From an uncultured Bacilli bacterium (GTDB lineage: Bacteria > Bacillota_I > Bacilli_A > RF39 > UBA660), in NCBI GenBank assembly GCA_934131005.1, contig CAKOYV010000001.1:13216-77215 (forward strand): a stretch of DNA of 64,000 bases. The letters are read 5' to 3'. The position numbers and the translations under genes were made by a program. Below the pieces are notes generated by a model. The model was given only the letters and a program-made list of their open reading frames with translations, was not told the origin of the DNA and made no database searches. Below, in pieces: positions 46,024 to 60,129 of the stretch. How positions within the stretch are numbered: the stretch's first letter is position 1; every line of letters starts with the position of its first letter.

Positions 46024-47351
46024 TTAGTCTCCCCCTTATCTTTAATTATTTCTACCATTTTCAAAATATCATTAAGTAATACTTCATGACTACTTCCATC
46101 ACTCATATTCTTAATATTTATTTTTCCTTCTTTTATTTCATCCTCACCTAGTACTATAACATAAGGTATATTATTTTTATTAGCCCAAGACATAGCTTTC
46201 TTTACTTTCCTTTTATTCATCTCTACAATAACTCTTATATTATACTCTCTAAGACTATTAGCAAGACCTAAACTACAAATACTATCATCCATAGGTATTA
46301 TATAAAGATCATATAAATCACTATTACTAATTTTATTACTCTTAGTAATTATTTCATAGATTGGTACTAACCCAAAAGTCATACCAACAGCAGGATATTT
46401 ATTACCATCATTAATAAAATTAGTAATAATATTATCATACCTACCTCCAGCACCTATACTAGAAGTAACTCTTCCTTCTTTATCAAACACTTCCCAAATA
46501 GTACCAGTATATATCTCTAAACCACGAGCTAGGTATGGTGTGAATACACATTCTCTAACACCCAAATCATCAAGATATTTACTAAGTTCACGAACCTCGC
46601 TAATACCTTTCCTCAAAGTATCATTACAACTATCATAAACATTAGAAGCAAGAGTATCAAAATCAACCTTAAAATAATTAAACAAACAATCTAGCTTACT
46701 ACTATCAATATCATAAGATTTAAGTTCTTCTCTAACACCATCTTCTCCTATCTTAGCAAGCTTATCAACAGACAAAATCACTTTTGTAATAACCTCACGC
46801 TCTATACCTGCCTCAATTATTAATCCCGATAAAAATTTTCTATTATTCCATTCTATATAAATATCAATGCCTAAATCTTTATAACACTTAACAGCCAAAC
46901 TCATAAGTTCAGCTTCAACAGTTGCACCTTCTATACCACATACATCAACATCACATTGATAAAATTCACGCACACGTCCTACCTTAACAGGCCCATCTCT
47001 ATATACTTTACCAATCTCATATCTTCTAAATGGTAATGATACTTTTTTATTAAGATTCATACTAATAATTTTAGAAAATGGGACTGTTAAATCATATCTA
47101 AGTCCAAGCTGTCTATTTCCTTGATCAGATAACGTATACATCTCTTTTAATATCTCAGCACCACCAGCATACTTACTTGCTAGTAGGTCATAATAACACA
47201 AAGTAGTAGTCTCAACAGGCAAATATCCATATAATTCAAAATTATTACTAAGTACTTTTATTATTTTATTTCTGATTATTTGCTCTTCTGGCAAATAATC
47301 AAAACTACCTTTAACATTCTGTAACTTCATCCCACTCAACATCTCCCTCAC
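46020..47351 (-). CDS. hisS: Histidine--tRNA ligase
   Basis: 443 aa. VKGSFDYLPEE, LRYDLTVPF, FRYEIGKVYRDGPVKVGRVREFYQCD and GAGGRYD are class II HisRS motifs. The true start may be the ATG at 47330. Confidence 0.85.
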   Translation of the reverse strand: MREMLSGMKLQNVKGSFDYLPEEQIIRNKIIKVLSNNFELYGYLPVETTTLCYYDLLASKYAGGAEILKEMYTLSDQGNRQLGLRYDLTVPFSKIISMNLNKKVSLPFRRYEIGKVYRDGPVKVGRVREFYQCDVDVCGIEGATVEAELMSLAVKCYKDLGIDIYIEWNNRKFLSGLIIEAGIEREVITKVILSVDKLAKIGEDGVREELKSYDIDSSKLDCLFNYFKVDFDTLASNVYDSCNDTLRKGISEVRELSKYLDDLGVRECVFTPYLARGLEIYTGTIWEVFDKEGRVTSSIGAGGRYDNIITNFINDGNKYPAVGMTFGLVPIYEIITKSNKISNSDLYDLYIIPMDDSICSLGLANSLREYNIRVIVEMNKRKVKKAMSWANKNNIPYVIVLGEDEIKEGKINIKNMSDGSSHEVLLNDILKMVEIIKDKGETK

Positions 47352-47358
47352 GCATATT

Positions 47359-47387
47359 ATTATACACTATAAAGCCTCACAAAGCAA
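47359..47387 (-). promoter_or_regulatory. Candidate sigma-A promoter for hisS-argS
   Basis: Minus strand reads TTGCTT, a 17-nt spacer, then TATAAT (47387..47382 and 47364..47359). This lies just upstream of the hisS RBS. Confidence 0.3.
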
Positions 47388-47406
47388 TTATAACTTTATG
47401 AGGCTT
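47372..47406 (-). terminator. Hairpin after DGR target gene 1
   Basis: 8-bp stem aagcctca/tgaggctt with a 19-nt loop; the T-tract is weak. Confidence 0.4.
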
Positions 47407-47441
47407 ATCTAAAATTATAGTGTTACAATTGATACAACACT

Positions 47442-47468
47442 CAGTTAACACCCTTAGGCTGTTACCTG
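47442..47468 (-). other. Conserved GC-containing hairpin 3' of target gene 1
   Basis: cagTtaaca-cccttaggc-tgttacctg pairs 8 of 9 bp. It is a copy of the perfect hairpin after target gene 2, preceded by the same gtagtggagta spacer. Confidence 0.5.
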
Positions 47469-47482
47469 ATATACTCCACTAC

Positions 47483-48460
47483 CTAACTTGTAGATATTTC
47501 CATAGGATAGTCCTCTGTACCTACTCCTAAGTATTTGAGCCCAGACTTGAGAGTCACTATTGGACGAAGGGCCCTGCTATTGCTGCTCTCACGAAATGAA
47601 GAGTTGCTATAGTAATACATGTCGCTGTTGTACACGGAGTCGTCCGAGGAGCCCAAGGAGTCGATCAAACATCCACCCCAGCTATAGGTAGTCGTGGATT
47701 TATAGCCGTAAAAGCGTGACGCTATCCAATATAAAGATGATAAACCTTTCACATTAGTAGCTTTTAATGTACCTATTGCATTTTTTACTAAATCATAGTC
47801 TTTTTGATATAGTTTGTCTCCTCCTCCTTGACTTTCTACTGGATTACAACTTCCTCCTGTTGAACAAGTCCATGGTGCTGGTTTAGTAAATTTAGATGTA
47901 TCTGTTATATATTTTGTTTGACCATTATAACCAAAATATCTCGAGCCTTTCGTATAAGTACTATTCTCATATTGACTAGCTAAAACATTCAAATATCCAA
48001 CTAAATTTTGATACCCTGTTTTTCCGCTAAAATATACTTCTGTCGTTGATGTATGCGCACTTATAACATCAACCGTACCATCGCTATTTAGGCTTATTAC
48101 TCGCCATAAATTTAATTCTTGCGGATTAATTGTCTGAGTACTGCTATATCCTGTTTTTGAGGTATCTGTTGTATATGATGATTTGGTCGGAGTCATTTTG
48201 ACATAATCGCCTACGGCTAAGGTATCTTTTTTAGTTAAACATACGTAACCATTTGGACAAGTTGTACTATTATTAATTTTAGTATTTAATTCATCAATAG
48301 CTCCTTGTACATCACCACTAGTTAGAGTACTATTACTATTATTATAAAAGACAGTATTAGATTTATATTTAGTTGCTGCTGCTACTGATATGCCAGTTAA
48401 TAATATTCCTAAAATAATACCATAAACTATTTTATAATTATAACTCTTCTTTTCTTTCAT
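47483..48460 (-). CDS. DGR target protein 1 (signal-anchored, C-terminal variable domain)
   Basis: 325 aa. The start overlaps the RT stop. It is highly similar to ORF 50509..51477 and to the C-terminus of the 2275-aa protein, except in the last roughly 60 residues (YWIASRFYGYKSTTTYSWGGCLIDS...ALRPIVTLKSG), which the TR-related GC-rich segment encodes. Confidence 0.8.
   Translation of the reverse strand: MKEKKSYNYKIVYGIILGILLTGISVAAATKYKSNTVFYNNSNSTLTSGDVQGAIDELNTKINNSTTCPNGYVCLTKKDTLAVGDYVKMTPTKSSYTTDTSKTGYSSTQTINPQELNLWRVISLNSDGTVDVISAHTSTTEVYFSGKTGYQNLVGYLNVLASQYENSTYTKGSRYFGYNGQTKYITDTSKFTKPAPWTCSTGGSCNPVESQGGGDKLYQKDYDLVKNAIGTLKATNVKGLSSLYWIASRFYGYKSTTTYSWGGCLIDSLGSSDDSVYNSDMYYYSNSSFRESSNSRALRPIVTLKSGLKYLGVGTEDYPMEISTS
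47562..47713 (-). repeat. DGR variable region VR1
   Basis: GC-rich island in an AT-rich gene. It aligns with the TR, sharing anchors CTTCGTCCA, TCCACGACT, ATC.AC.TCC and GGCTC. Most differences fall at TR adenines. Confidence 0.75.
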
Positions 48461-49406
48461 TTAATTTACCTCCCCTGGTTATATTTTTATAATTAATATA
48501 ACTAGATAAATAACTATTTAAATTTATTTTACCAGTCTCATATAAATATTTTTTATATTTAAATCTTCTAAAAGAATTTCTATATTTAGAAAATTTATTA
48601 TATTTATTTCTTCCAAGAAATATAATATTATTAGTATTTTTATATAATCTAGTTTTAGAATTTAATTCTAAATCTTGACTAACTAGAAATTCTTTTATTT
48701 TTTCTAAACAATATTTTAAATATTGTTTAGAAGGATGAAGTAGGATAAAATAATCTTGATATCTTACATAATATTTTATTTTTAATTCTTCTTTAATATA
48801 ATGATCCATTTCATTCAAATAAAAGATTCCTAATATTTGGCTAGTCATAAACCCTATACTAAGAGTAGTATCACTATCTAATATTTTAAATATTATATCA
48901 ATAGCATCTTTATCTTTTATTTTCCTTTGTAATTTTTTTTTTAAGATATCTATATTAATACTAGCGAAATATGCTTTTATATCACACTTTAAAAGATAGT
49001 AACTATTATATTTTTTATTTAATATACCTCCATATTTATAATATAAATCTAGAGCATATTTTGTTCCTTTATTAGGTCTAGATGCACAATTAGCATCTAT
49101 TAAACAAGGTATAAGTGCCTCATATAATATATATCTACTTACTAAATAATTCACTAACTTATCATACATATTTTGACTAACAATTCTTCTTTTCTTAGAA
49201 TCATAAATATAAAATACATTGTATTTACCAACTTGATAAGTTTTATTTTTCAAATCATGATAAGCTCTACTAATATAGATAGCTTTATAATTAATAAAGT
49301 TATTTACTTTATTTTTATTCTTAGTATTTCTACACATTTCATCAAAGCACTTCATTATATTTTCAAATTTATATATATTTTTATATAAATTATTTTTTCG
49401 TCTCAT
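48438..49406 (-). CDS. DGR-type reverse transcriptase with a non-canonical catalytic box YQDY
   Basis: 322 aa. RT motifs RRIVSQNMYDKLV, SRPNKGTKYAL and LKCDIKAYFASI. The DGR-specific motif SIGFMTSQILGIFYLNEMDHY is present. Motif C reads YYVRYQDYFILL, where YxDD is expected. Confidence 0.85.
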   Translation of the reverse strand: MRRKNNLYKNIYKFENIMKCFDEMCRNTKNKNKVNNFINYKAIYISRAYHDLKNKTYQVGKYNVFYIYDSKKRRIVSQNMYDKLVNYLVSRYILYEALIPCLIDANCASRPNKGTKYALDLYYKYGGILNKKYNSYYLLKCDIKAYFASINIDILKKKLQRKIKDKDAIDIIFKILDSDTTLSIGFMTSQILGIFYLNEMDHYIKEELKIKYYVRYQDYFILLHPSKQYLKYCLEKIKEFLVSQDLELNSKTRLYKNTNNIIFLGRNKYNKFSKYRNSFRRFKYKKYLYETGKINLNSYLSSYINYKNITRGGKLNERKEEL

Positions 49407-49496
49407 ATATCCACTTTCATAAAATTACTAACAGATATATTTTAATTAAATTTATAGAATAATTCTAAAGGACTTAGTCTATTTCTTCATTATCTC

Positions 49497-49518
49497 TAAT
49501 ATAAGATTACTTATATTA
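49497..49518 (-). other. 9-bp hairpin in the TR-RT spacer
   Basis: taatataag-atta-cttatatta lies about 20 nt 3' of the TR on the minus strand. Confidence 0.4.
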
Positions 49519-49537
49519 CCGCAGTTTGAAGAAGTTG

Positions 49538-49658
49538 CTGGACGAAGGACATTGTTGTTGTTGTTCAAAGAGCCCGAGGAGTTGATATAACGTCCGTTCC
49601 AGTTATAGTTAGTCGTGGAGTTATAGTTAGTCGTGGAGTTATAGTTATAATAGTGTAC
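49538..49658 (-). repeat. DGR template repeat (TR)
   Basis: Noncoding segment between avd and the RT. In the VR frame it reads TAT TAT AAC TAT AAC TCC ACG ACT AAC TAT AAC TCC ACG ACT AAC TAT AAC TGG AAC GGA CGT TAT ATC AAC TCC TCG GGC TCT TTG AAC AAC AAC AAC AAT GTC CTT CGT CCA. It is AAC-rich, as is typical of TRs. Confidence 0.8.
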
Positions 49659-49679
49659 ACTAGTCTAAACAACTAAGCC

Positions 49680-50020
49680 CTATACAGATGACTTTCGCCA
49701 TTTTATTACATATCTTAATAAATAATCTAAACTCTCCCCAAATTTTAAATATCTTTTAGAATTAATAATATGTTTGTTATAACAAACATTTATTAAATAA
49801 TCTAAATATTTAATATAAGAAATTAGTTTATCCTGAATATCAATTCTTTTCTCTAAATTAAAAGTTGTATTAGCTTCATAACTAATCTTTATCATTTGAT
49901 AAGAAGTAAACATATTTCTTTTTTTAATTCTATCTCTTTATGAGGAAAATTAGTTAAATATTTATCAAAATTATCAGTTAATTTTTTTACTAACTCTATT
50001 ACATAAAACTTATCTTTCAT
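49680..50020 (-). CDS. avd: Accessory variability determinant (Avd), split by a frameshift at an A7 run
   Basis: The ATG at 50020 overlaps the upstream stop and opens MKDKFYVIELVKKLTDNFDKYLTNFPHKEIELKK, the FPK-E-type first helix pair of Avd/23S-IVS four-helix-bundle proteins. That frame ends shortly after the A7 run at 49919..49925. The -1 frame continues RNMFTSYQMIKISYEANTT...FGESLDYLLRYVIKWRKSSV (ORF 49680..49913). Combined length is about 112 aa. Confidence 0.7.
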
Positions 50021-50431
50021 ATAATAAATTCTCTACTTCTTCTAATTTAGTATTATCTTTTAAAAGATATTTCTTTATTTTATCTATCCTATTTATTATA
50101 TCTATATAATTATTAGCTTTTATTAAAATATTTTTATAATTATTTTTATTTTTATAATTTACTTTATCAACCTCCTCATAATTATGAACTTTATCTATAA
50201 TAATATAATTTATATTTCTATTTTCTAGTTTAGATATTATTTTATTATAAGAGACAATAGGAAAACCACATGATTTATTATTAGCAGGCACATTTCTAAT
50301 TTTATATCCAAACAAATAAGAAATTATATCAGCATCATCATTATAACATTCATAAAAAGTTCCTTTTTTAATAATAAAACATAATTAGGAAATAATTCTT
50401 TTAAATTATTAACCATATTTATTACTGCCAT
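50010..50431 (-). CDS. MutS-domain-I-like DGR accessory protein, split by a frameshift at A_AAA_AAG
   Basis: The ATG at 50431 opens MAVINMVNNLKELFPNYVLLLKK. The -1 frame continues GTFYECYNDDADIISYLFGYKIRNVPANNKSCGFPIVSYNKIISKLENRNINYIIIDK. The joined sequence is colinear with MutS domain I (LLFFRMGDFYELFYDDA...MAGIPYHA...YLAKLV...VAICEQ). Confidence 0.65.
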
Positions 50432-50465
50432 ATTTTCATTATTCCTTTCTTTAATTTTTTTGCCC

Positions 50466-50496
50466 ATCAGGTAACACCCTTAGGCTGTTACCTGAT
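50466..50496 (-). other. Perfect 11-bp hairpin 3' of target gene 2
   Basis: atcaggtaaca-cccttaggc-tgttacctgat lies 13 nt after the stop codon. No T-tract follows it. Confidence 0.55.
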
Positions 50497-50508
50497 GTAC
50501 TCCACTAC

Positions 50509-51477
50509 CTAACTTGTAGATATTTCCATAGGATAGTCCTCTGTACCTACCCCTGAGTATTTGAGCCCAGACTTGAGAGTCACTATTGGACGAAGGGCAT
50601 TATCGATGCTGTACTCGTCAAACTCAGAGTCGTCATAGGTATAAAAGTCGTCGTTGAGGTCCAAGGAGCCCGAGGAGTCGATACTACGCCCATACCAGCT
50701 ATAGTAAGACGTGGAGTCATAGTAATAACCACGTGTCGCTATCCAATAATAAGATGATGAACCATTCACATTAGTGGCTTTTAATGTACCTATTGCATTA
50801 TTTACTAAATCATAGTCTTTTTGATATAGTTCGTCTCCTCCTCCTTGACTTTCTACTGGATTACAACTTTCTCCTGTTGAACAAGTCCATGGTTCTTGAT
50901 TAGTAAATTTAGATGTATCTGTTATATATTCTGTTTGACCATTATAACCAAAATATCTTGAGCCTTTCGTATAAGTACTATTCTCATATTGACTAGCTAA
51001 AACATTCAAATATCCAACTAAATTTTGATACCCTGTTTTTCCTCTAAACCATACTTTTGTCGTTGATGTATGTGCACTTATAAGATCAACCGTACCATCG
51101 CTATTTAGGCTTATTACTCGCCATAAATTTAATTCTTGCGGATTAATTGTTTGCCTATTGCTATATCCTGTTTTTGAGGTATCGGTTGTATATGTTGATT
51201 TCGTTGGTGTCATTTTAACATAATCGCCTACATCTAAAGTGTTTTTCTTTTTCAGTTTTAAACATACAAGCTTTTTAGGGCATTCTTTATTTTTATCTTT
51301 ATACAATTCAACTAAAGCATCTTGCACATTAGTAGATTTAAGTCCACTATTAGTATTATCATAAGTAAGATCACTACCACTACCAACATAAGTAACAGCA
51401 TAAACAGTAGTAATAGAAATAAAAATACCTATAAATAAACCTATTAATATTTTATAATTCTTCTTTTTCATAAACAT
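50509..51477 (-). CDS. DGR target protein 2 (signal-anchored, C-terminal variable domain)
   Basis: 322 aa and a paralog of target 1. The variable tail is YYWIATRGYYYDSTSYYSWYGRSIDSSGSLDLNDDFYTYDDSEFDEYSIDNALRPIVTLKSG. Confidence 0.8.
   Translation of the reverse strand: MFMKKKNYKILIGLFIGIFISITTVYAVTYVGSGSDLTYDNTNSGLKSTNVQDALVELYKDKNKECPKKLVCLKLKKKNTLDVGDYVKMTPTKSTYTTDTSKTGYSNRQTINPQELNLWRVISLNSDGTVDLISAHTSTTKVWFRGKTGYQNLVGYLNVLASQYENSTYTKGSRYFGYNGQTEYITDTSKFTNQEPWTCSTGESCNPVESQGGGDELYQKDYDLVNNAIGTLKATNVNGSSSYYWIATRGYYYDSTSYYSWYGRSIDSSGSLDLNDDFYTYDDSEFDEYSIDNALRPIVTLKSGLKYSGVGTEDYPMEISTS
50589..50731 (-). repeat. DGR variable region VR2
   Basis: GC-rich island that aligns to the TR. In my hand alignment of the colinear 72 nt, 11 of 15 mismatches fall at TR adenines. 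Confidence 0.75.
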
Positions 51478-51516
51478 AATTAAATATAACCTACCTTTCT
51501 ATTTCTACTGTTTATA

Positions 51517-52059
51517 TTATTTAACCGTATATAAATCATAATTATCTATAAAATTATCAACTGTCCTATTACTATCTATATTAATAATATTACCAAACAT
51601 CTTACCTTCTCTTATATATATAATAGAAGGAGGAGCAAATATTTTTTTATCTATATTTAATAAATTTAACAATTTATTATATTCTTCCTTATCTGTATCC
51701 ATATCATTATATAAATAATACTTAATTCCTTTTTTATATAAATGTTTTTTAATTGTTAAATTTTTTAAATTACTACTTTTATCATTATAATAATATATAA
51801 CAAACGTCTCTTTCTTATCCATCATGCTTTTTAATTCGTTATAATCAATAGTTCTAGCTTTGCCACTATAAAGAGAAGTGGCAATAGCTACTATTATTAT
51901 AATGAATAAAATTATAGTTCCTATTATAAACTTTTTCCTATATTCTCTATCAGTAGATACTTTTTTTCTTATAGCTATTACTTTACTCTTAGTTATTCTA
52001 CTGAACTTAAGAATAATTTTCTTAAGTTCAGTAATTATATTCATAATCTTTTCCTTCAT
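51517..52059 (-). CDS. Membrane-anchored thioredoxin-fold-like protein lacking CxxC
   Basis: 180 aa with RBS aaggagg and a TM helix. The pattern ETFVIYYYNDKSS...YYLYNDMD...PPSIIYIREGKMFG resembles thioredoxin-like bacteriocin-accessory proteins, but it has no Cys pair. Confidence 0.35.
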   Translation of the reverse strand: MKEKIMNIITELKKIILKFSRITKSKVIAIRKKVSTDREYRKKFIIGTIILFIIIIVAIATSLYSGKARTIDYNELKSMMDKKETFVIYYYNDKSSNLKNLTIKKHLYKKGIKYYLYNDMDTDKEEYNKLLNLLNIDKKIFAPPSIIYIREGKMFGNIINIDSNRTVDNFIDNYDLYTVK

Positions 52060-52088
52060 ATAAATCTAACCTCCTTCTATCTATAATT

Positions 52089-52190
52089 TTAATTTGAAAG
52101 ATTATAAGGATTAGTCTTTGATCCATCTCCAGAGTACTTAATTCCAGATTTCAGAGTCACTATTGGTCGAAGAGAACTACCCTTATTTTT
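52089..52190 (-). pseudogene. 3'-terminal remnant of a fourth target-type gene
   Basis: Reads KGSSLRPIVTLKSGIKYSGDGSKTNPYNLSN*. The DNA CTTCGACCAATAGTGACTCTGAAATCTGG matches the segment just 3' of VR1 and VR2. Homology stops abruptly at about 52190, next to the IS remnant. Confidence 0.65.
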
Positions 52191-52199
52191 TCTTTATTT

Positions 52200-53200
52200 T
52201 TTAAGTGTTTTTCTATATTTTTATTACCCCTCTTTTTTTAGGATATTTTTTATAGAAATTTTACTTTTTATCAAATTTTATAAGAAAAATCCTGAAAAAA
52301 TTAAACTTAGATATATTTACCGTAAATTCAATATTGGTTTACCAAAGTTAACAAACAATTATCGGGAGTTTATTCAATCTCCTATTGACTTATCTCGTGC
52401 TTATTCTTCTCAATACATCATTGGATTATGTCTTACTTATCATGTTAATTATGGTCTTTCCTATAGACAAACTTCCTCTATTTAAAGATATTCATGAAGT
52501 AAATATATCTTATAAAACCGTAGAAAATTATTGTAAAGCTGCATCTTCTATTGTAAATCCAGTTTTAGAATTTTATCCATACGAATTACCAGATACCATT
52601 GCAGCTGATGAAACATATATCAAAATACATTGTTACATCATATAGAGTATTTGAAAAACGTGATTCTTTATCTTCAATCAAGGCTACTTATTCAACATTA
52701 GTTAAATATGATAAATTACCTGAATCTTTAAAAGTGATTTCTGATGGTAATCCTATTTATAATGTGGCTGTTCAGTATTGGTATCAAAATGGCTTACCAT
52801 TTAAACTTTATCAGGTCATTGGACTTACAAATCAGGGTGATACTTCTAAAGAATATAGAAGTCAAAAGCAAATCATTGAACGTTTTAATCATACTTTAAA
52901 GTATTATTATCGCCCTAAAGGTGGATTTACTTCTCTTAATAATGCCAATAGTTACATGGTGTTATTTGCCACTTATAATAACTTTTCAAGACCAAATAAT
53001 GCCTTAGAATGGCAAAATCCAGTTCAACTTGATGAATTATCCAATATTTCAAATATGCCAAATAAATGGATTGAATTATTAAACCTTGGTTATAAATATT
53101 CTGATATTTATTGTTAAGTTTAACCTTTTAAAAAAATTACTTACTTAACTTTTTTCATCATGTCCTTTTTTATTAATTCTATTTTCAAAGAGCTATTTTT
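52200..53200 (+). mobile_element. Degenerate IS6-like insertion sequence (transposase broken by a stop and a frameshift)
   Basis: Plus-strand fragments: SSQYIIGLCLTYHVNYGLSYRQTSSI*, KDIHEVNISYKTVENYC...IAADETYIKI (DDE first-Asp region), then ISDGNPIYNVAV...QIIERFNHTLKYYYRPKGGFTSLNNANSYM. The order is colinear with IS26-type Tnp as I recall it, but the segment around the second Asp is missing. The element ends were not identified. Confidence 0.5.
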
Positions 53201-53301
53201 CTATCTTTTTTGATAGATTTATATCAAGATTTTACAACCTTAATACCTTTTCTTTTAGTATGACTAGTTTTTCATAAAACTTTTCACACTATCATATAGC
53301 A

Positions 53302-56300
53302 TTAATTTGCTGATAATTTATAAGGATCTTCTGCTGTACCACTTCCTGTATATTTAAGGCCTGATTTTAAAGTTACAATAGGACGTAAATAATTTGATCT
53401 ACCTACACTATGAAAAGTACCATTAACTAGTCCCATCAACATATCTACATTAATACTATCTTTAGAGATAATTCTACCACCAACATCCCACATAGGAGGT
53501 ATATCAGTTTTAAAAATATATAATCTAGAAGATACCCAATATGAAACAGAATCACTACTTGCCACTGTTGATGCTTCTAAAGTTTTTAAAGTACTATTTA
53601 CTAAATCATAATCTTTCTTATATAGTGTATCACCACCACCTTGACTCTCTACTGTACAACCATCTTTATCAGTAGAACAAGTCCAAGGAACTCCTCTCTT
53701 ACTAATTTTTGATGTATCGGTTATATATTCTGTTTGACCATTATAACCAAAATATCTTGAGCCTTTCGTATAAGTACTATTTTCATACTGACTTGCTAAT
53801 ACATTCAAATATCCAACAAAATTTTGATATCCCACTTGTCCATTAAAATATATTGATGTACTTGATACATGCTCACTTATAACATCCACTGTTCCATCGC
53901 TATTTAGGCTTATCACTCGCCATAAATTTAATTCTTGCGGATTAATTGTTTGCGTACTACTATATCCTGTTTTAGATGTATCTGTTGTATAAGAGGATTT
54001 AGTTGGTGTCATAGATACATAATCACCCAAATTTAACCAATGAGCATAATAAGTAGATACACTTGAAGTTACCGTTGAAGTCGATTTTATTTCATTACCA
54101 CCACTAGCTTCAGTATACCATCCTAAAAATTTAGCACCTGGCATACTAGGAGATGATAAGGAACCAACACTACTACCAATTTCTTTAGATATTTCACTTG
54201 AAATCTTTATATCACCTATTTTTAAAGTTGTAGTAACACCATCCATAGCACCGCCAAAATTAAAATTGAAATACATAGTACTACCAGTACCAGTAAATTT
54301 TAAAGTCTTAGTAACAACACTAGAAGTTGCACTTGTTGGAATAGTTTCATTAACTACAGAATTAGCTATATTTGTATCATCTTCCACTTTATTTGTAATT
54401 TGATACATAATTCCACTAACACCATCAATACCACTTAATGCTGTATACCCATTTGGATTTTCATAATCAAAAGAAATTGTATATTCTACTCCCTGCACAG
54501 TATCTATTGGTAAATATATATTTTCCCACATTGCATCACCTGACACTGCAATTGTATTCATATCCGAGCTAGAATTATAAGAAATGTTAAATCTACTACT
54601 ATATGTTTTTTGCCAATTATTCATATTATTATTTTTAAAATTATAATCAAGTTTCAATGTTTTAAATCTTGTATCTAATTTATCTATTGCACACTGCACA
54701 TCATCACAATCTACTCCTGTTTTAGAATTATCATAAGAGAAATCTTCAGCTTTTAATCTCTTAGCCTTCGCAGTATATGTAGCATTTGAAGTTAAATTCA
54801 AAGAATTCCCTGCATTTCCAACTAATGTACCACCAGAATTATACCAACCAGCTACTATATAACCACTAGCAGGTGTTATTGTTGGTAATGTAATAGAACA
54901 ACTAGTTGTTCTATAACTACTACCGTTAGTAGTTGAATTAATATTACAAGACAAACTAGTAGATCCTATACTACTAACATTACTATTTTCTTTAGTAAAT
55001 GTCGCTGTATTAGTACCATTATAAATAGCATAATATTTAATTTGACTTGTATTAACTGTTGAAGTTACAGTAGTACTACTAACAGAAGTAGATATTCCTT
55101 TATAAGTACTATTATTAGGCCCTTTACTAGAACTAACAGCATTAGGAATACTAATAGCTCCTTGCCCAACTACACTTCCAGAATAATTAGCAGTCTGTGT
55201 GCCACTAGCACTCACTGTTGCTTGAGCACTACCATTATAATAATAGAAAGTTGCAGCTACTGACCTCGTATATAAACTATATAAACTAGTAGCCGTACTA
55301 GTTGCTGCCGCCGCTACACTATTATAACTCTTATTAGCAGTATTATTACTAGTTGCATATCCCGCAAAAGTCCAAGTAACAGAGTTATTAGTCCAATTCC
55401 CATTACTAAGATTGGAAGTACCTGTACTACTAGTGCTAAGAACCGTATTCATTGCATTATTACTAGTAAAGAAAGCGTTTCGATAAACCGTCCTGCTAGT
55501 ACCACTAGAATATTCCGTTATAGATTTTCTATAAGCAACATAATAATTTTTTGCCCCCGATAAAGTTACTGTAGAATTCGTACTAATATTCATTGTGTTT
55601 ATATTCCCATATCCTACATATACAGAACCATATTGAGAAGTAGTATCTTTAAAAGTAGACAAAGGAACAGTCGCACTACAACTAGTATTATTATTATACA
55701 AATCACAACTAGAACTAACATTCTTAATACCACTATTATAATAATAGAAAGTAGCTGCTACGTTCTTTTTATATATAGCATATAAAGTTATATTACTAGT
55801 TCCCATCTTAAGAGAATCTAATTTACTAGTAGCACTTTTATTAGTATTCCAACCTACTAAAGTATAACCTGTCTTTGGCGTACAAGTTTTAGTTAAATCT
55901 ACACTAGCATTATAATTTACTTTAACACTAGCTATAGTACCACTTCCACCATTAGTAGTACAATCATAATTAACATTATAACTATTAATAGTAGAGGCAA
56001 AATTAGCAGTAATAGTACTAGCAGCATTAACGGTACCACTTGCTGATGACCAACTACTAAAACTAGTTGTATAGCCTGTTATACTTTTAGCTGTTGCTGT
56101 TACACTTCTAGAATCATTTAAGGTAAGTTTATTACTGCTAGTAGTATAAGTTCCACCCTTAGGAACTATATATTTAGATGCCGACACTGTACCATAATTA
56201 GTATTATTGGATTTAATATTCAAGTTATAAAATTCTGCACTAACCTCCGTATTAGAAGCTCCTACAGTTCCTGATTTAGTGTAATTACTAATATTAGTAC

Positions 56301-59300
56301 CATCTACTTTTACACCATATATCTGATATGGAACTCCATAATAATTTTGAGTCCAATAATCTGTAACATAACCCTTATCAACATTATTTACTCTAAACCC
56401 TACTGATATTCCATTACTAGTAGCAGTACTACTATTAATACCAGTACCATCTAAATATAAATTAAGATCTAAATAAACTTTATTCGCTGTCCAATGAGCA
56501 TAATATGTTGCATTAGCATTTGATACTGTCGTTGTACTAGTTACTTTAGTACCTCCAACAGGAGCTGTATACCAACCATCAAAAGTATAACCTGTTCTAG
56601 TTAAAGTCTTCAAACTATCGCCTAAAGTAGAACCGTAAGTTAAACTAGAAGTAGTAACAGGTTGACTTCCTTCTCTTATATCTAACGAATGAACGTATAA
56701 TTCATCTGAAGCATTCCAACTACTACCATTTAAATAAAAGACAAAAGCATAATATGAATTATCATTCGCCACAAAAGTATGAGTTACTCTCTGCCAAGAA
56801 GTAGTAACATTAACATTAACTTGACCTCCTTGTTCATCACCTATTTTCAAAGTTTTATTACTACTAGCTTTAACATAAACACTCCAAGTATAAGTCTTAC
56901 CAGCAGTAAGTTTACTGTTTGGAGCATAATAAACTCCACCACTAGTACCAGCATTCATTGTAAATTTAACAACATTACCACTCCTAGCAGCATCCTCATC
57001 TACATTACTCTTAGCACTAGGACAAGTTGCCGCACAACTATATTTAGCTGGATAAAATGAATCATTCCATAAATTATCACTATAATAATTTTGATCGTAA
57101 GTAATATTATATTTATTAACTGTCCACATAGCATACAAAACTAACTTACCATTACTAATACCATATTGTCCATCAATATATGCCCATTTGCCACTCCAAC
57201 CAGTCCAATTATATCCATCACTAGTACCATCTGATTTAGTTGTCCACCCTGCAAATGTATAACCTGTCCTAGTAAAAGTATTAGTTTTAATAGTAGTATT
57301 ATCATCATAATTTACCGTATGAGAAGACATGGTACCACTACCATCATTAGCATTATAACTTATAGTATAACTATTAGCCTTCCAAATAGCATATAAATTT
57401 ACATTTCCTTGAGTTGCCAAATTTTTAACACTAGCTCCCCCAACATAAGTATTTTCACTAGCATTTAATTTATAAAATTTTACATTTTTAATTGTTGCAG
57501 AACAACCAGGCATTGCTCTAAATAAAACATATTTATTTACATTACCATCTCCACTAGATCCTAATGTAAAAGTTACTGTATAATGCGTGTAATTACTAGA
57601 TAAAGGAATCGAATTAAAACCGTCAGCATTAGTACCATTACCACCAGTAGATGAAGTCCAACTTGCAACTTTCAAATAATTACTAGCCCCATAAAAATAA
57701 TTATATAAATTGCCACTTCCCTTTACATCAACTTCAAGCCTATATTTTTCGCCTGAACTAAATGGTGCATTTATCGTATACTGTTTAAAATCTGAATATC
57801 CTGACTCTCCCGAAGCTTTTGAACCACTAATTTCAGACGTATCATTTAAAAGTGCCTTCGTCGAACTAGAAGTTGACCATCCTACAAAAGCATAACCTCT
57901 TTTAGTAAAAGCATTATTTTTAATAGTAGCTGTACTATCATATTTTACAGTTTGAGAATCCATCGTACCAGTTCCACCATTAGCATTATAAATTATTGTA
58001 TAATCATTAGCACTACATCTAGCATATAAAGTTACATTACCTTGTACAGCAGTTGGGGTATAACTAGCACCTGATGCATAACTAGTTCCACTACCATCAC
58101 TCTTTGTATTCCAATTACACGTATAACCAGTCTTAGAAACAGTTGGTAAATTAAATGCAACAGGAGTCCAATTAGCTGTCAAAGTAACAGTAGACCCATT
58201 AGTTGGATTCAAATTCTTAAAATATTTACTTTTAACTAAAGTTGATCCATTACTCCAACTATTTGTAATACTAGAAGTACTATCTCCATATTTAGCCGTA
58301 CTTGTATTAATATTACTAGCCGTCCATCCATTAAATGTCTGAGCCTTTGAAGTAGCTAAACCAATAGTTGCTCCAGTACCATTAGCATCCCCTGTAGCTT
58401 TAATTGTCTTAGTAGGATTATCTATAGTAATATTACTATCATAATTACCACTACTAGGTGTATTAGTTCCTTTAGTACCATTATTCAAAGTATAATTAAT
58501 ATTATATGTATTAACATTCCAATTACCAGTTAAAGTTCCATTACCAGCCCCAAACCTATACACATAACCACCATAATTTTCATTACTTATATAAGTATTA
58601 GCTGTTACATCATAAACTGATAAATTCTTCATATCCATATCAACTTCACCAGTAGTTCCTGGAGCAATACCAAAATAAATTTCTACACAAGGATTAATAT
58701 TATAACTATTACCACTTAACGTAAGTGTAGTCCCAGTAAAAGTTCTTTCCATAGAATATTCTACCCAACCATCAGTTACCCCTACATTTTTAAATGTCCA
58801 TCCTGAAGAACCCCAATCATTATTAAATGCCGAATGTCTTACATGAGCATAAGCAAAACCAGAACTCTTCCTAACTCTCATCATATATGTAATTCTATAT
58901 TTATGACCTGAAGTATAAGCATAATTATTAAAACGAATAAATGGATAAAAATTACTACTCCCTGAATTATTAAGATTAAAAGCATAATTTGTATAACTAG
59001 TTCCATCCGTATCTGTCTTAACAGTTCTAGTTATTTCAGTACTCTTAGAAATACTAACTGCACTAGCATTTCCTCTCATAAGTGTTCCACTACCACTAAG
59101 ATTCCATTTATTAAACGTATAACCCGTCCTAGTAGCTGGTAATAATCCATAAGTCGTATTATAATTTTGTGAAACATTAACTGTACTAGTAGAATTATTA
59201 TAAGTACCACCATTAGGATTAATAGTTAAATTATATTTATTAATACTCCACTTAGCATATAAAGTACTAGCTTTATTAAAATATTTATTAGTAAAATTAC

Positions 59301-60129
59301 TAGTTATGTAACTATTAGTACCAATTAAATTAACTCCTCCACCATTAGAAGCCGTATAATATCCTAAAAATGTATAACCCGTTCTAGTAGGATTAGTTAT
59401 TCCATTACTACTAGTAGTCATTAAAGTAGTCTTAGCCGTACTATCTTTATAAATACCCATACCATACTTCTCATATATCATCGAAGTACCACCTTTATTA
59501 CTATCAGCACCCTGATTATCAAGAGTAATAGGATATATAGGTACAGCCTGATCACATAACTCTAAGTTAGCTTTAATACTAGCATTTTGCATATTACTAC
59601 TATCACTACTATTACCATCTATATAAACTATAAACCTATATTCTTTAATCTCTTCTGGTTCTATATAAATATCACTATAAATAGTATTACTACCAACACT
59701 TAAATTACTAAAATTACCACTCTTTAATACTTTACTATAACTATCTCCTACCTTCTCAAGTAATACCCACTTAAAGCCTGTACTCTTTAACGCATCAGAC
59801 ATAGATATAATATTTATCTTAGCATACATCATATATGTATCACTCTTAGTATTAGTAGCCGTATAATCACTGTATATTAAATACTTACCATAATTACTAT
59901 CTGCATAATAACTACTATCTGTATAATCTAATATAGGACTCAAATTAGCACCTTCAATAGAGGCACTTTTTTTATAAACATATTTTAAACCACCATCATG
60001 AATACCAACATCAACATTTGTATTAGCACTCTTCCAAACATAGTAGGCAAATGTTAAAGATAATAAACAAAGAATAAAAACAATTACTCCAACTATTGTT
60101 CCAAATAGTTTTCTCTTACCTTCTCCCAT
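53302..60129 (-). CDS. Giant (2275-aa) surface protein: TasA-like signal anchor, many InlB B-repeats and CBM-like modules, C-terminal DGR-target-type domain (undiversified)
   Basis: N-terminus LFGTIVGVIVFILCLLSLTFAYYVWKS. There are at least 8 Listeria-Bacteroides repeats (for example TRTGYTFLGYYT...LYAKW, TRTGYTFAGWTT...LYAMW, TRTGYTFDGWYTAP...YYAHW). The last roughly 250 aa are homologous to the two DGR targets (GDYVSMTPTKSSYTTDTSKTGYSSTQTINPQELNLWRVISLNSDGTVDVISEH...YLRPIVTLKSG). Confidence 0.85.
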   Translation of the reverse strand: MGEGKRKLFGTIVGVIVFILCLLSLTFAYYVWKSANTNVDVGIHDGGLKYVYKKSASIEGANLSPILDYTDSSYYADSNYGKYLIYSDYTATNTKSDTYMMYAKINIISMSDALKSTGFKWVLLEKVGDSYSKVLKSGNFSNLSVGSNTIYSDIYIEPEEIKEYRFIVYIDGNSSDSSNMQNASIKANLELCDQAVPIYPITLDNQGADSNKGGTSMIYEKYGMGIYKDSTAKTTLMTTSSNGITNPTRTGYTFLGYYTASNGGGVNLIGTNSYITSNFTNKYFNKASTLYAKWSINKYNLTINPNGGTYNNSTSTVNVSQNYNTTYGLLPATRTGYTFNKWNLSGSGTLMRGNASAVSISKSTEITRTVKTDTDGTSYTNYAFNLNNSGSSNFYPFIRFNNYAYTSGHKYRITYMMRVRKSSGFAYAHVRHSAFNNDWGSSGWTFKNVGVTDGWVEYSMERTFTGTTLTLSGNSYNINPCVEIYFGIAPGTTGEVDMDMKNLSVYDVTANTYISNENYGGYVYRFGAGNGTLTGNWNVNTYNINYTLNNGTKGTNTPSSGNYDSNITIDNPTKTIKATGDANGTGATIGLATSKAQTFNGWTASNINTSTAKYGDSTSSITNSWSNGSTLVKSKYFKNLNPTNGSTVTLTANWTPVAFNLPTVSKTGYTCNWNTKSDGSGTSYASGASYTPTAVQGNVTLYARCSANDYTIIYNANGGTGTMDSQTVKYDSTATIKNNAFTKRGYAFVGWSTSSSTKALLNDTSEISGSKASGESGYSDFKQYTINAPFSSGEKYRLEVDVKGSGNLYNYFYGASNYLKVASWTSSTGGNGTNADGFNSIPLSSNYTHYTVTFTLGSSGDGNVNKYVLFRAMPGCSATIKNVKFYKLNASENTYVGGASVKNLATQGNVNLYAIWKANSYTISYNANDGSGTMSSHTVNYDDNTTIKTNTFTRTGYTFAGWTTKSDGTSDGYNWTGWSGKWAYIDGQYGISNGKLVLYAMWTVNKYNITYDQNYYSDNLWNDSFYPAKYSCAATCPSAKSNVDEDAARSGNVVKFTMNAGTSGGVYYAPNSKLTAGKTYTWSVYVKASSNKTLKIGDEQGGQVNVNVTTSWQRVTHTFVANDNSYYAFVFYLNGSSWNASDELYVHSLDIREGSQPVTTSSLTYGSTLGDSLKTLTRTGYTFDGWYTAPVGGTKVTSTTTVSNANATYYAHWTANKVYLDLNLYLDGTGINSSTATSNGISVGFRVNNVDKGYVTDYWTQNYYGVPYQIYGVKVDGTNISNYTKSGTVGASNTEVSAEFYNLNIKSNNTNYGTVSASKYIVPKGGTYTTSSNKLTLNDSRSVTATAKSITGYTTSFSSWSSASGTVNAASTITANFASTINSYNVNYDCTTNGGSGTIASVKVNYNASVDLTKTCTPKTGYTLVGWNTNKSATSKLDSLKMGTSNITLYAIYKKNVAATFYYYNSGIKNVSSSCDLYNNNTSCSATVPLSTFKDTTSQYGSVYVGYGNINTMNISTNSTVTLSGAKNYYVAYRKSITEYSSGTSRTVYRNAFFTSNNAMNTVLSTSSTGTSNLSNGNWTNNSVTWTFAGYATSNNTANKSYNSVAAAATSTATSLYSLYTRSVAATFYYYNGSAQATVSASGTQTANYSGSVVGQGAISIPNAVSSSKGPNNSTYKGISTSVSSTTVTSTVNTSQIKYYAIYNGTNTATFTKENSNVSSIGSTSLSCNINSTTNGSSYRTTSCSITLPTITPASGYIVAGWYNSGGTLVGNAGNSLNLTSNATYTAKAKRLKAEDFSYDNSKTGVDCDDVQCAIDKLDTRFKTLKLDYNFKNNNMNNWQKTYSSRFNISYNSSSDMNTIAVSGDAMWENIYLPIDTVQGVEYTISFDYENPNGYTALSGIDGVSGIMYQITNKVEDDTNIANSVVNETIPTSATSSVVTKTLKFTGTGSTMYFNFNFGGAMDGVTTTLKIGDIKISSEISKEIGSSVGSLSSPSMPGAKFLGWYTEASGGNEIKSTSTVTSSVSTYYAHWLNLGDYVSMTPTKSSYTTDTSKTGYSSTQTINPQELNLWRVISLNSDGTVDVISEHVSSTSIYFNGQVGYQNFVGYLNVLASQYENSTYTKGSRYFGYNGQTEYITDTSKISKRGVPWTCSTDKDGCTVESQGGGDTLYKKDYDLVNSTLKTLEASTVASSDSVSYWVSSRLYIFKTDIPPMWDVGGRIISKDSINVDMLMGLVNGTFHSVGRSNYLRPIVTLKSGLKYTGSGTAEDPYKLSAN

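What the first reader, a model, noticed from the sequence alone, without database searches (positions are those of the whole stretch)
47483..51477. Diversity-generating retroelement with two flanking targets: target2-msl-avd-TR-RT-target1
All the canonical DGR parts are visible.
- The RT carries the DGR-specific IGxxxSQ motif (SIGFMTSQILGIFYLN).
- An Avd-like four-helix protein is present.
- An AAC-rich noncoding TR lies at 49538..49658.
- Two paralogous signal-anchored proteins differ mainly in their last roughly 60 codons, which align to the TR.
- VR1 (47562..47713) and VR2 (50589..50731) are conspicuous GC-rich islands in AT-rich genes.

In my hand alignment of the colinear 72 nt, 11 of 15 (VR2) and 10 of 18 (VR1) mismatches fall at TR adenines, although A makes up only about a third of TR positions. 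This fits adenine-directed mutagenic retrohoming followed by some drift.

The diversified domain ends in YW(I)A(S/T)R...ALRPIVTLKSG. I infer, by analogy only, that this is a C-type-lectin-like ligand-binding fold.
Basis: partly seen in the sequence, partly recalled or inferred. Interest (0 to 1): 0.8.

Follow-up and report, generated by a model that had tools for sequence, protein, structure and literature searches.

The report
A dead diversity-generating retroelement
This is a real diversity-generating retroelement (a reverse-transcriptase system that rewrites the tip of surface proteins), but in this genome it is a broken fossil whose two "variable" proteins are now frozen, so it is an ordinary, already-known kind of element caught in decay.

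Summary
The described parts are all present on the minus strand: target(VR2)-MSL-Avd-TR-RT-target(VR1). TR/VR mismatches are concentrated at TR adenines (13 of 16 for VR2, 10 of 18 for VR1). The RT is closest to the chain I take to be the Bordetella phage DGR RT. Avd and MSL homology is confirmed, and intact relatives show clean A-specific mutagenesis. So it is a DGR by descent, of the published MSL+Avd architecture.

The copy is not functional, because five lesions have accumulated.
- The RT catalytic YQDD is YQDY (D219Y). All 120 closest homologues keep DD.
- Avd has a 1-nt deletion.
- MSL has a 1-nt deletion.
- The TR has lost 45 nt between AAC repeats, so it is no longer colinear with either VR.
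- The TR carries an 18-nt tandem duplication.

The same lesions recur in independent metagenome assemblies. A syntenic relative (L091) still has an intact RT, Avd and full-length TR. Both VRs are identical, or differ by 1 nt each, among strains whose neighbouring housekeeping genes have dS of 0.07-0.10.

A high-confidence model of the target domain matches no solved C-type lectin. It matches only a phage DUF6273 protein, weakly. Interest is low to moderate.

The parts
50509..51477 (-). Upstream target gene (322 aa, N-terminal hydrophobic anchor or signal, intact ORF)
   Evidence: It is 72% identical to the downstream target. Relatives carry the same two-target layout.
50587..50733 (-). VR2, the formerly diversified 3' region of the upstream target (GC island)
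   Evidence: Against the window TR, 13 of 16 mismatches fall at TR adenines. Against the full-length TR of L091, 20 of 27 do.
50465..50497 (-). Conserved hairpin just after the upstream target's stop codon (loop GCCUAAGG)
   Evidence: dG -23.9. In one search, 10 of 12 stem pairs show compensatory changes across relatives and the loop is invariant.
50010..50431 (-). MSL (MutS domain I-like) accessory gene, now a pseudogene with a 1-nt deletion at about 50362..50369
   Evidence: relatives read TTA AAA AT(T/A) GGA, whereas the window reads TTA AAA A-A GGA; the repaired protein hits PF01624 at E=1e-10; the same lesion is in L001, L092 and L093.
49680..50020 (-). Avd accessory gene, now a pseudogene with a 1-nt deletion at about 49913..49914
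   Evidence: relatives read GAA AT(T/A) ATG, whereas the window reads GAA AT- ATG; the repaired protein hits phrog_3206 'Avd protein of DGR' at E=4.6e-9; the same lesion is in L001, L092 and L093, while L091 is intact.
49539..49655 (-). Template repeat (TR), AAC-rich and non-coding. It carries an 18-nt tandem duplication (units 49645..49628 and 49627..49610) and a 45-nt internal deletion relative to the ancestral TR.
49407..49538 (-). TR-RT spacer, conserved among relatives. The CUUCUUC just 3' of the TR is predicted to pair with GAAGAA about 40 nt downstream, around an inner hairpin.
   Evidence: The fold z-score is not significant. The analogy to the TR:Sp duplex of the Bordetella DGR RNA is inference.
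48438..49406 (-). DGR reverse transcriptase (322 aa), with catalytic motif C mutated from YQDD to YQDY (codon 219 TAT at 48752..48750)
   Evidence: 120 of 120 homologues have RYQDD. Y219 aligns to D216 of 8ub7_A. GAT in L001 and L091, TAT in L092 and L093; dN/dS 0.63.
47483..48460 (-). Downstream target gene (325 aa, intact ORF, start overlaps the RT stop by 23 nt)
   Evidence: A model of residues 78-325 has pLDDT 95.7.
47561..47716 (-). VR1, the formerly diversified 3' region of the downstream target (GC island)
   Evidence: Against the window TR, 10 of 18 mismatches fall at TR adenines. Against the L091 TR, 19 of 29 do.
47441..47469 (-). Hairpin after the downstream target (same GCCUAAGG loop). 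In the window it has one stem mismatch.
   Evidence: dG -13.0 here against -21.5 in L001. L091 also has a mismatch at this position, so I do not count it as a lesion.

Best explanation
The locus is a chromosomal DGR of the MSL+Avd type in an uncultured gut Bacilli/Clostridia-like bacterium.

**How it once worked (inferred from the family).**
- The cassette was transcribed.
- The RT-Avd complex copied the AAC-rich TR RNA into cDNA, misincorporating at adenines.
- The cDNA replaced the last roughly 150 nt of two paralogous surface-anchored proteins.
- Homing was guided by the shared 3' boundary CCTTCGTCCA and probably by a conserved hairpin after each target.

**Order of decay (shown).**
- In the lineage leading to the window, Avd and MSL each lost one nucleotide.
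- The TR lost 45 nt by slippage or recombination between its AAC runs.
- Later, in the window's own strain group, the RT lost a catalytic aspartate (D219Y) and the TR gained an 18-nt tandem duplication.

**Present state.** No retrohoming has occurred since the TR deletion, and the two VRs are frozen. The two target genes survive as intact ORFs and are presumably still used as fixed surface proteins.
For: **DGR identity**
- RT-to-bRT relationship and the IGxxxSQ motif.
- Avd. MSL.
- A-biased TR/VR mismatches.
- Relatives with the same target-MSL-Avd-TR-RT-target layout.
- In relative L008, 25 of 27 and 25 of 28 mismatches fall at adenines.

**Lesions**
- YQDY against 120 of 120 RYQDD in homologues. 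The residue aligns to bRT D216. D215/D216 are catalytic, and Avd is required for catalysis, per bioRxiv 10.1101/2023.10.23.563531.
- The 1-nt deletions in Avd and MSL are defined against five relatives.
- The TR deletion and duplication are defined against L001 and the syntenic L091.

**The lesions are real, not errors**
- The same lesions occur in L001 (98.2% identical), and in L092 and L093 (99.9% identical, from different samples).
- Neither frameshift sits in a homopolymer of the ancestral sequence.

**Inactivity**
- Both VRs keep the ancestral length rather than the TR's length.
- The VRs are identical in the window, L092 and L093. They differ by 1 nt each from L001, while the adjacent HisRS and ArgRS have dS of 0.10 and 0.07.
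- Non-adenine TR/VR mismatch rates are 6-17% here against 2-3% in L008.
- RT dN/dS is 0.63 against 0.08-0.14 for the housekeeping genes.
- There is no second RT or Avd in the window.
Against: - Only 64 kb is visible, so another DGR elsewhere in the genome could in principle supply RT and Avd in trans.
- Both frameshifts need a -1 shift and lie at or just after in-frame A_AAA_AAG and A_AAA_AAA heptamers. Low-level ribosomal frameshifting could therefore yield some full-length Avd or MSL.
- The D219Y effect is inferred from other RTs and was not measured.
- The dN/dS values rest on 8 substitutions.
- Identical VRs in consensus assemblies do not exclude rare within-population variants.
- MSL is also broken in relatives that otherwise look intact: a TGA stop in L005 and an IS insertion in L091. 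Its loss alone says little.
Confidence: 0.88

Rival explanations
1. This is an active, complete DGR that is currently diversifying both targets.
For: All parts are recognisable, and the A-bias is significant.
Against: - The catalytic Asp is lost.
- Avd and MSL are frameshifted.
- The TR is not colinear with the VRs.
- The VRs are invariant among four assemblies.
Confidence: 0.03
2. The element is crippled but still occasionally active. Avd and MSL would be restored by -1 frameshifting at the A-rich heptamers, and RT activity would be supplied in trans by another DGR in the unseen part of the genome. The old cis elements (TR, IMH-like boundary, hairpins) would be reused.
For: - In-frame A_AAA_AAG and A_AAA_AAA sites lie immediately at or before both frameshifts.
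- The cis hairpins and the TR-spacer region are still conserved.
- Some related genomes carry more than one copy of this RT family, for example CAMCQH01 (L026 and L029) and CANSPP01 (L017 and L080).
Against: - Any successful homing from the present TR would shorten the VRs by about 40-50 nt or insert the 18-nt duplication. Neither VR shows either change.
- No VR differences are seen among the window, L092 and L093.
- The frameshift sites are not conserved features of the family. Relatives simply have an extra base there.
Confidence: 0.06
3. The lesions are sequencing or assembly artefacts, and the real locus is intact.
For: The cassette is extremely AT-rich (10-25% GC), a composition in which indel errors are common on some platforms.
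Against: - Identical lesions occur in three other assemblies from different samples.
- The deleted bases are a T within ATT or ATA codons, not part of a long homopolymer.
- Neighbouring long ORFs are intact, including one of 2275 aa.
Confidence: 0.01
4. The element is not a DGR at all. It would be a retron, a group II intron or a defence RT that happens to sit next to repeats.
For: NCBIfam gives only sub-threshold hits, to group II RT (62.8 bits against a cutoff of 300) and to Drt3a.
Against: - The best solved relative is the DGR RT, by 18 orders of magnitude in E-value.
- An Avd homologue is present.
- A-specific TR/VR mismatches occur here and in relatives.
Confidence: 0.01

Closest known systems
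Bordetella phage BPP-1 DGR (bRT, Avd, TR, mtd VR)
   Same: - The RT is homologous over its full length: 8ub7_A, which I take to be bRT, at E=8e-30 with the family profile.
- An Avd homologue lies upstream of the TR.
- The avd-TR-RT order is the same.
- The VR lies at the 3' end of the target.
- Mismatches are adenine-specific.
- A conserved boundary and a hairpin lie downstream of the VR.
   Different: - It is chromosomal, not phage-borne.
- It has two targets flanking the cassette.
- It has an extra MSL gene.
- The target domain is not detectably Mtd-like.
- The hairpin lies about 90 nt beyond the VR boundary, after the stop codon.
- This copy is catalytically dead (YQDY) with a broken Avd and TR.
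MSL-containing DGRs, 'Architecture D' of Wu et al. 2018 (PMC5758913), e.g. the Legionella DGR
   Same: A small MutS domain I-like accessory gene occurs together with avd, as that survey describes: MSL proteins of 112-283 aa, always accompanied by avd.
   Different: - The target is not DUF1566/CLec2, because Pfam gives no hit.
- The host clade is gut Bacilli/Clostridia MAGs.
- MSL is a pseudogene here. It is also independently broken in relatives L005 and L091.
Gut-phage DGR targets with DUF6273 domains (tentaclins, PMC10743442; Faecalibacterium prophages, PMC11792537)
   Same: - The only credible structural match of the target model is a phage DUF6273 protein.
- The VR lies at the C-terminal end of the domain and forms beta-hairpins.
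   Different: - The window protein has no Pfam DUF6273 hit, and only 2 of 106 family members hit weakly at E=0.016.
- TM-scores are only 0.44-0.51.
- The protein is chromosomal, membrane-anchored and non-phage.

Membership tests
Diversity-generating retroelement (DGR) | RT of the DGR clade with the [I/L/V]GxxxSQ motif | tested here: met
   IGFMTSQ is invariant in the family. The best PDB hit is the DGR RT 8ub7_A at E=8e-30, against 1e-11 or worse for retron and group II RTs.
Diversity-generating retroelement (DGR) | TR/VR repeat pair whose differences are concentrated at TR adenines | tested here: met
   VR2 has 13 of 16 mismatches at adenines (p=4.6e-5) and VR1 has 10 of 18 (p=0.023). Against the ancestral-type TR of L091 the counts are 20 of 27 and 19 of 29.
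Diversity-generating retroelement (DGR) | Catalytically competent RT (YxDD with both aspartates) | tested here: not met
   The window reads YQDY. All 120 homologues read YQDD. Y219 aligns to catalytic D216 of bRT.
Diversity-generating retroelement (DGR) | Intact accessory protein Avd | tested here: not met
   An Avd homologue is present (phrog_3206, E=4.6e-9), but it is split by a 1-nt deletion into pieces of 36 and 77 codons.
Diversity-generating retroelement (DGR) | TR colinear with VR, so that the cDNA can replace the VR | tested here: not met
   The TR has a 45-nt internal deletion plus an 18-nt duplication relative to the VRs and to the L091 TR.
Diversity-generating retroelement (DGR) | Conserved 3' VR boundary (IMH-like) and a downstream structured element | tested here: met
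   CCTTCGTCCA is shared by the TR and both VRs, after which they diverge. The hairpin has 10 of 12 covarying pairs. Its function is inferred, not tested.
Diversity-generating retroelement (DGR) | Ongoing diversification (VR differs among near-identical genomes) | tested here: not met
   The VRs are identical in the window, L092 and L093, and differ by 1 nt each from L001. Read-level heterogeneity could not be tested.
DGR Architecture D (MSL + avd; Wu et al. 2018) | MutS-like small accessory gene together with avd in the cassette | tested here: met
   The repaired MSL hits PF01624 at E=1e-10. Relatives carry intact MSL of 139-140 aa. The family definition comes from PMC5758913.
C-type-lectin-fold DGR variable proteins (Mtd/TvpA type) | Structural similarity of the VR-bearing domain to solved CLec-fold variable proteins | tested here: inconclusive
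DUF6273 (PF19789) DGR target domain | Pfam match or clear structural match to DUF6273 | tested here: inconclusive
   The window protein has no Pfam hit. Only 2 of 106 family members hit, at E=0.016. The Foldseek match to phage DUF6273 protein A0A8S5MNV4 has E=1.9e-3, probability 1.00 and TM 0.44/0.51.

The most novel reading that the evidence does not exclude
The VR-bearing domain may be a not-yet-described family of DGR variable domains. It has no Pfam family and no PDB match, and is only distantly DUF6273-like. The same bacteria also use it, undiversified, as the C-terminal tip of a 2275-aa surface protein. The syntenic strain series L091, then L001, then the window records step by step how a DGR dies while its frozen variable proteins are retained.
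Probability: 0.3. Interest if true: 0.4.

Novelty: new member of a known kind. Interest (0 to 1): 0.3.

Why it matters
- For annotation, automatic DGR finders and naive readers would call this locus an active hypermutation system. It is not, and its two 'variable' proteins should be treated as fixed alleles.
- The RT family is common in gut Bacilli/Clostridia MAGs: 346 loci among GTDB species representatives. The target domain has no curated family.
- The four-strain comparison gives a dated order of decay: accessory genes and TR first, RT last.
- MSL was lost three times independently (window lineage, L005, L091). This hints that MSL is the most dispensable part of this DGR type.

Tried and rejected
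- **First structure prediction.** The full-length target with 48 close homologues gave pLDDT 52.7, and its fold search was meaningless. I replaced it with a domain-only, 106-sequence alignment.
- **Pfam and NCBIfam on the targets and on Avd.** These gave nothing. PHROGs was needed to recognise Avd. A profile of 21 Avd homologues against the PDB found no Avd structure.
- **Rfam on 47000..53500.** Only a chance miRNA hit came back.
- **Positive control for ongoing activity.** I hoped that L005, L006 and L007 (same RT, three samples) would serve, but their VRs are identical, so they are uninformative.
- **Frameshifts as homopolymer sequencing errors or conserved programmed sites.** I rejected this because relatives have a T at the deleted position and because independent assemblies agree.
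- **VR1 hairpin mismatch as a sixth lesion.** I rejected it as evidence because L091 has a mismatch at the same position in both of its hairpins.
- **The giant protein's C-terminus as a third VR.** I rejected it because there is no TR similarity, no GC island and no downstream GCCTAAGG hairpin.


Full report
**1. What is in the sequence**

All features lie on the minus strand. Reading 5' to 3' on that strand:
- a 322-aa target gene, 51477..50509
- an MSL remnant, about 50431..50010
- an Avd remnant, about 50020..49680
- the TR, 49655..49539
- a 132-nt spacer
- a 322-aa RT, 49406..48438
- a 325-aa target gene, 48460..47483, whose start overlaps the RT stop

The window as a whole is 28% GC and the cassette is 10-25% GC. 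Both target 3' ends are 46-50% GC islands.

**2. The adenine signature is real**

I aligned TR and VRs in codon register over the colinear 5' block.
- VR2 differs from the TR at 16 of 78 positions, and 13 of these are TR adenines (Fisher p=4.6e-5).
- VR1 differs at 18 of 72 positions, and 10 are adenines (p=0.023).
- Thirteen of the 22 VR1/VR2 differences also fall at TR adenines.

**3. It belongs to a large DGR family**

- The RT has 1350 database homologues at E<=1e-5. A scan of one genome per species found 346 loci, nearly all in gut or rumen MAGs labelled Bacilli or Clostridia.
- The family profile hits PDB 8ub7_A at E=8e-30 over the full length. Group II and retron RTs score 1e-11 or worse.
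- 8ub7_A has YMDD at residues 213-216. This matches the catalytic D215/D216 reported for the Bordetella phage bRT (bioRxiv 10.1101/2023.10.23.563531). I therefore take 8ub7_A to be bRT. This identification is an inference, because the PDB code is not quoted in any paper I could search.
- IGxxxSQ is invariant in the family.
- Close relatives L002, L005, L008, L011 and L013 have the same target-MSL-Avd-TR-RT-target layout in different genomic contexts. Where intact, their MSL is 139-140 aa (it is truncated in L005; see section 4) and their Avd is 114-115 aa.
- In L008, 25 of 27 and 25 of 28 TR/VR mismatches are at adenines.
- The repaired window Avd matches PHROG 3206 'Avd protein of DGR' at E=4.6e-9.
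- The repaired MSL matches Pfam MutS_I at E=1e-10.
- This MSL+avd layout is 'Architecture D' of Wu et al. 2018 (PMC5758913).

**4. The copy in the window is broken in five places**

(a) *RT motif C.* It reads RYQDY. All 120 best homologues read RYQDD, and 71 of the 80 species-representative loci examined show YQDD; in the other nine the pattern search found no motif. Codon 219 is TAT at 48752..48750 and aligns with bRT D216.

(b) *Avd.* Relatives read GAA AT(T/A) ATG and the window reads GAA AT- ATG. This splits a 113-codon gene after codon 36.

(c) *MSL.* Relatives read TTA AAA AT(T/A) GGA and the window reads TTA AAA A-A GGA.

(d) *TR deletion.* The TR lacks 45 nt, TTG TAT AAC TAT AAC AAC TCT TCA TTT AAC GAG AAC AAC AAT AAC. 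These bases are present in the TR of the syntenic relative L091, and their diversified counterparts are present in both window VRs. The deletion is bounded by AAC repeats.

(e) *TR duplication.* The TR carries an 18-nt tandem duplication, ACTATAACTCCACGACTA x2, at 49645..49610.

Against the full-length L091 TR, the window's VR2 aligns over 139 nt with 20 of 27 mismatches at adenines (p=8e-6). VR1 aligns over 142 nt with 19 of 29 at adenines (p=3e-4). The VRs were therefore written by a longer ancestral TR, not by the present one.

**5. The lesions are real and can be ordered**

- L092 and L093 are two different Hadza samples. They are 99.93-99.95% identical to the window and carry all five lesions.
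- L001 is a third sample, 98.2% identical. It carries the Avd and MSL deletions and the 45-nt TR deletion. It still has GAT at codon 219 and no duplication.
- L091 is about 96% identical and sits in the same position next to HisRS and ArgRS. It has an intact Avd (113 aa), a YQDD RT and a full-length TR. Its MSL is split by an rve-type insertion sequence.

The order is therefore: accessory genes and TR first, then the RT and the TR duplication.

**6. The VRs are frozen**

- Both VRs are identical in the window, L092 and L093.
- Against L001 each VR differs at one position. Meanwhile the adjacent HisRS and ArgRS have dS of 0.10 and 0.07.
- Both VRs keep lengths (147 and 156 nt) that the present 117-nt TR cannot template.
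- Non-adenine TR/VR mismatch rates are 6-17% here, against 2-3% in L008. This fits drift after inactivation.
- RT dN/dS between the window and L001 is 0.63 (6 of 8 changes are non-synonymous). Housekeeping genes give 0.08-0.14. The counts are small.
- The two targets remain intact ORFs. Target A has dN/dS of 0.35.

**7. Cis elements**

- The TR and both VRs share CCTTCGTCCA and then diverge (TR: GCAACT; VR: ATAGTG). This is the expected IMH-type boundary.
- After each target's stop codon lies a hairpin with an invariant GCCUAAGG loop. Its stems covary across relatives, with 10 of 12 pairs showing compensatory changes.
- By analogy with the hairpin or cruciform that aids target recognition in the Bordetella DGR, it may mark the targets. 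This comparison rests on my own knowledge and was not tested here. It could equally be a terminator.
- The stretch just 3' of the TR (CUUCUUC) is predicted to pair with GAAGAA in the spacer, around an inner hairpin. This resembles the TR:Sp duplex described for bRT. The fold is not statistically distinctive (z=-0.9).

**8. The target protein**

- No Pfam or NCBIfam family matches, and sequence and profile searches against the PDB return nothing.
- A first model was poor.
- With a 106-sequence alignment that included 36-45% identical relatives, residues 78-325 modelled at pLDDT 95.7 and pTM 0.93. The VR maps onto a set of beta-hairpins, domain residues about 167-220. One lower-confidence loop lies within it.
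- Foldseek finds no PDB match (best E=0.54, TM 0.14 or less).
- In the viral library it finds one credible match, a DUF6273 protein (E=1.9e-3, probability 1.00, TM 0.44/0.51).
It is not confirmed here.

**9. Verdict**

The interpretation 'DGR' is right as to kind and history, but wrong as to state. This is a decayed member of a known DGR architecture, with two frozen targets. Novelty is low: a new member of a known kind. Secondary points of interest are the uncurated target domain, the recurrent loss of MSL, and the stepwise decay series.

Noticed in passing
window 53302..60129 (-), especially 53302..54036: A 2275-aa protein with Listeria-Bacteroides repeats (Flg_new) ends in a third copy of the target domain, 65% identical to target A. 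This copy has no GC island, no TR similarity and no GCCTAAGG hairpin. It is an undiversified paralogue, and possibly the ancestral source of the DGR targets. L011 has a similar large repeat protein just upstream of its DGR.
   Followed up: partly
window 52095..52175 (-): An orphan 3' fragment of a fourth target-like gene encodes SSLRPIVTLKSGIKYSGDGSKTNPYNLSN*. It begins almost exactly at the IMH-like CTCTTCGACCAATAGTG boundary and lies next to the IS remnant. It may be a relic of a truncated target or of an aberrant homing or deletion event.
   Followed up: partly
window 52385..53117 (+): Two overlapping ORFs (86 and 172 aa) on the opposite strand. The second has a weak rve_3 integrase-core hit (E=3.5e-4, below threshold). 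This is probably a degraded insertion sequence between the DGR and the giant surface protein.
   Followed up: partly
L005:9053-9370; L091:2729-4425: MSL is independently inactivated in relatives whose RT, Avd and TR look intact. L005, L006 and L007 have an in-frame TGA, and L091 has an rve-type IS insertion. With the window lineage this makes three independent losses, suggesting that MSL is dispensable or often lost first.
   Followed up: partly
window 47441..47469 and 50465..50497; L002, L005, L008, L013, L063: The hairpin after each DGR target has an invariant GCCUAAGG loop and strongly covarying stems (10 of 12 pairs compensatory). It lies about 90 nt beyond the VR boundary and after the stop codon. 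Its role, whether target recognition or termination, is unknown.
   Followed up: partly
window 47483..51477 compared with L001: Between the window and L001 the DGR cassette is less diverged (RT dS 0.012, target B dS 0, target A dS 0.034) than the adjacent HisRS and ArgRS (dS 0.10 and 0.07). This hints at a recent recombinational exchange of the cassette region between strains.
   Followed up: no
L002:8786, 11810 and 20327: In L002 the two cassette-flanking VRs are identical over at least 260 nt, which could reflect assembly collapse or recent gene conversion. A third VR-bearing gene lies about 10 kb downstream.
   Followed up: no
proteins P0060 and P0108: Some family members encode a single polypeptide of about 447 aa that fuses MutS_I (MSL) to the N-terminus of the RT. 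This supports a direct functional link between MSL and the RT.
   Followed up: no
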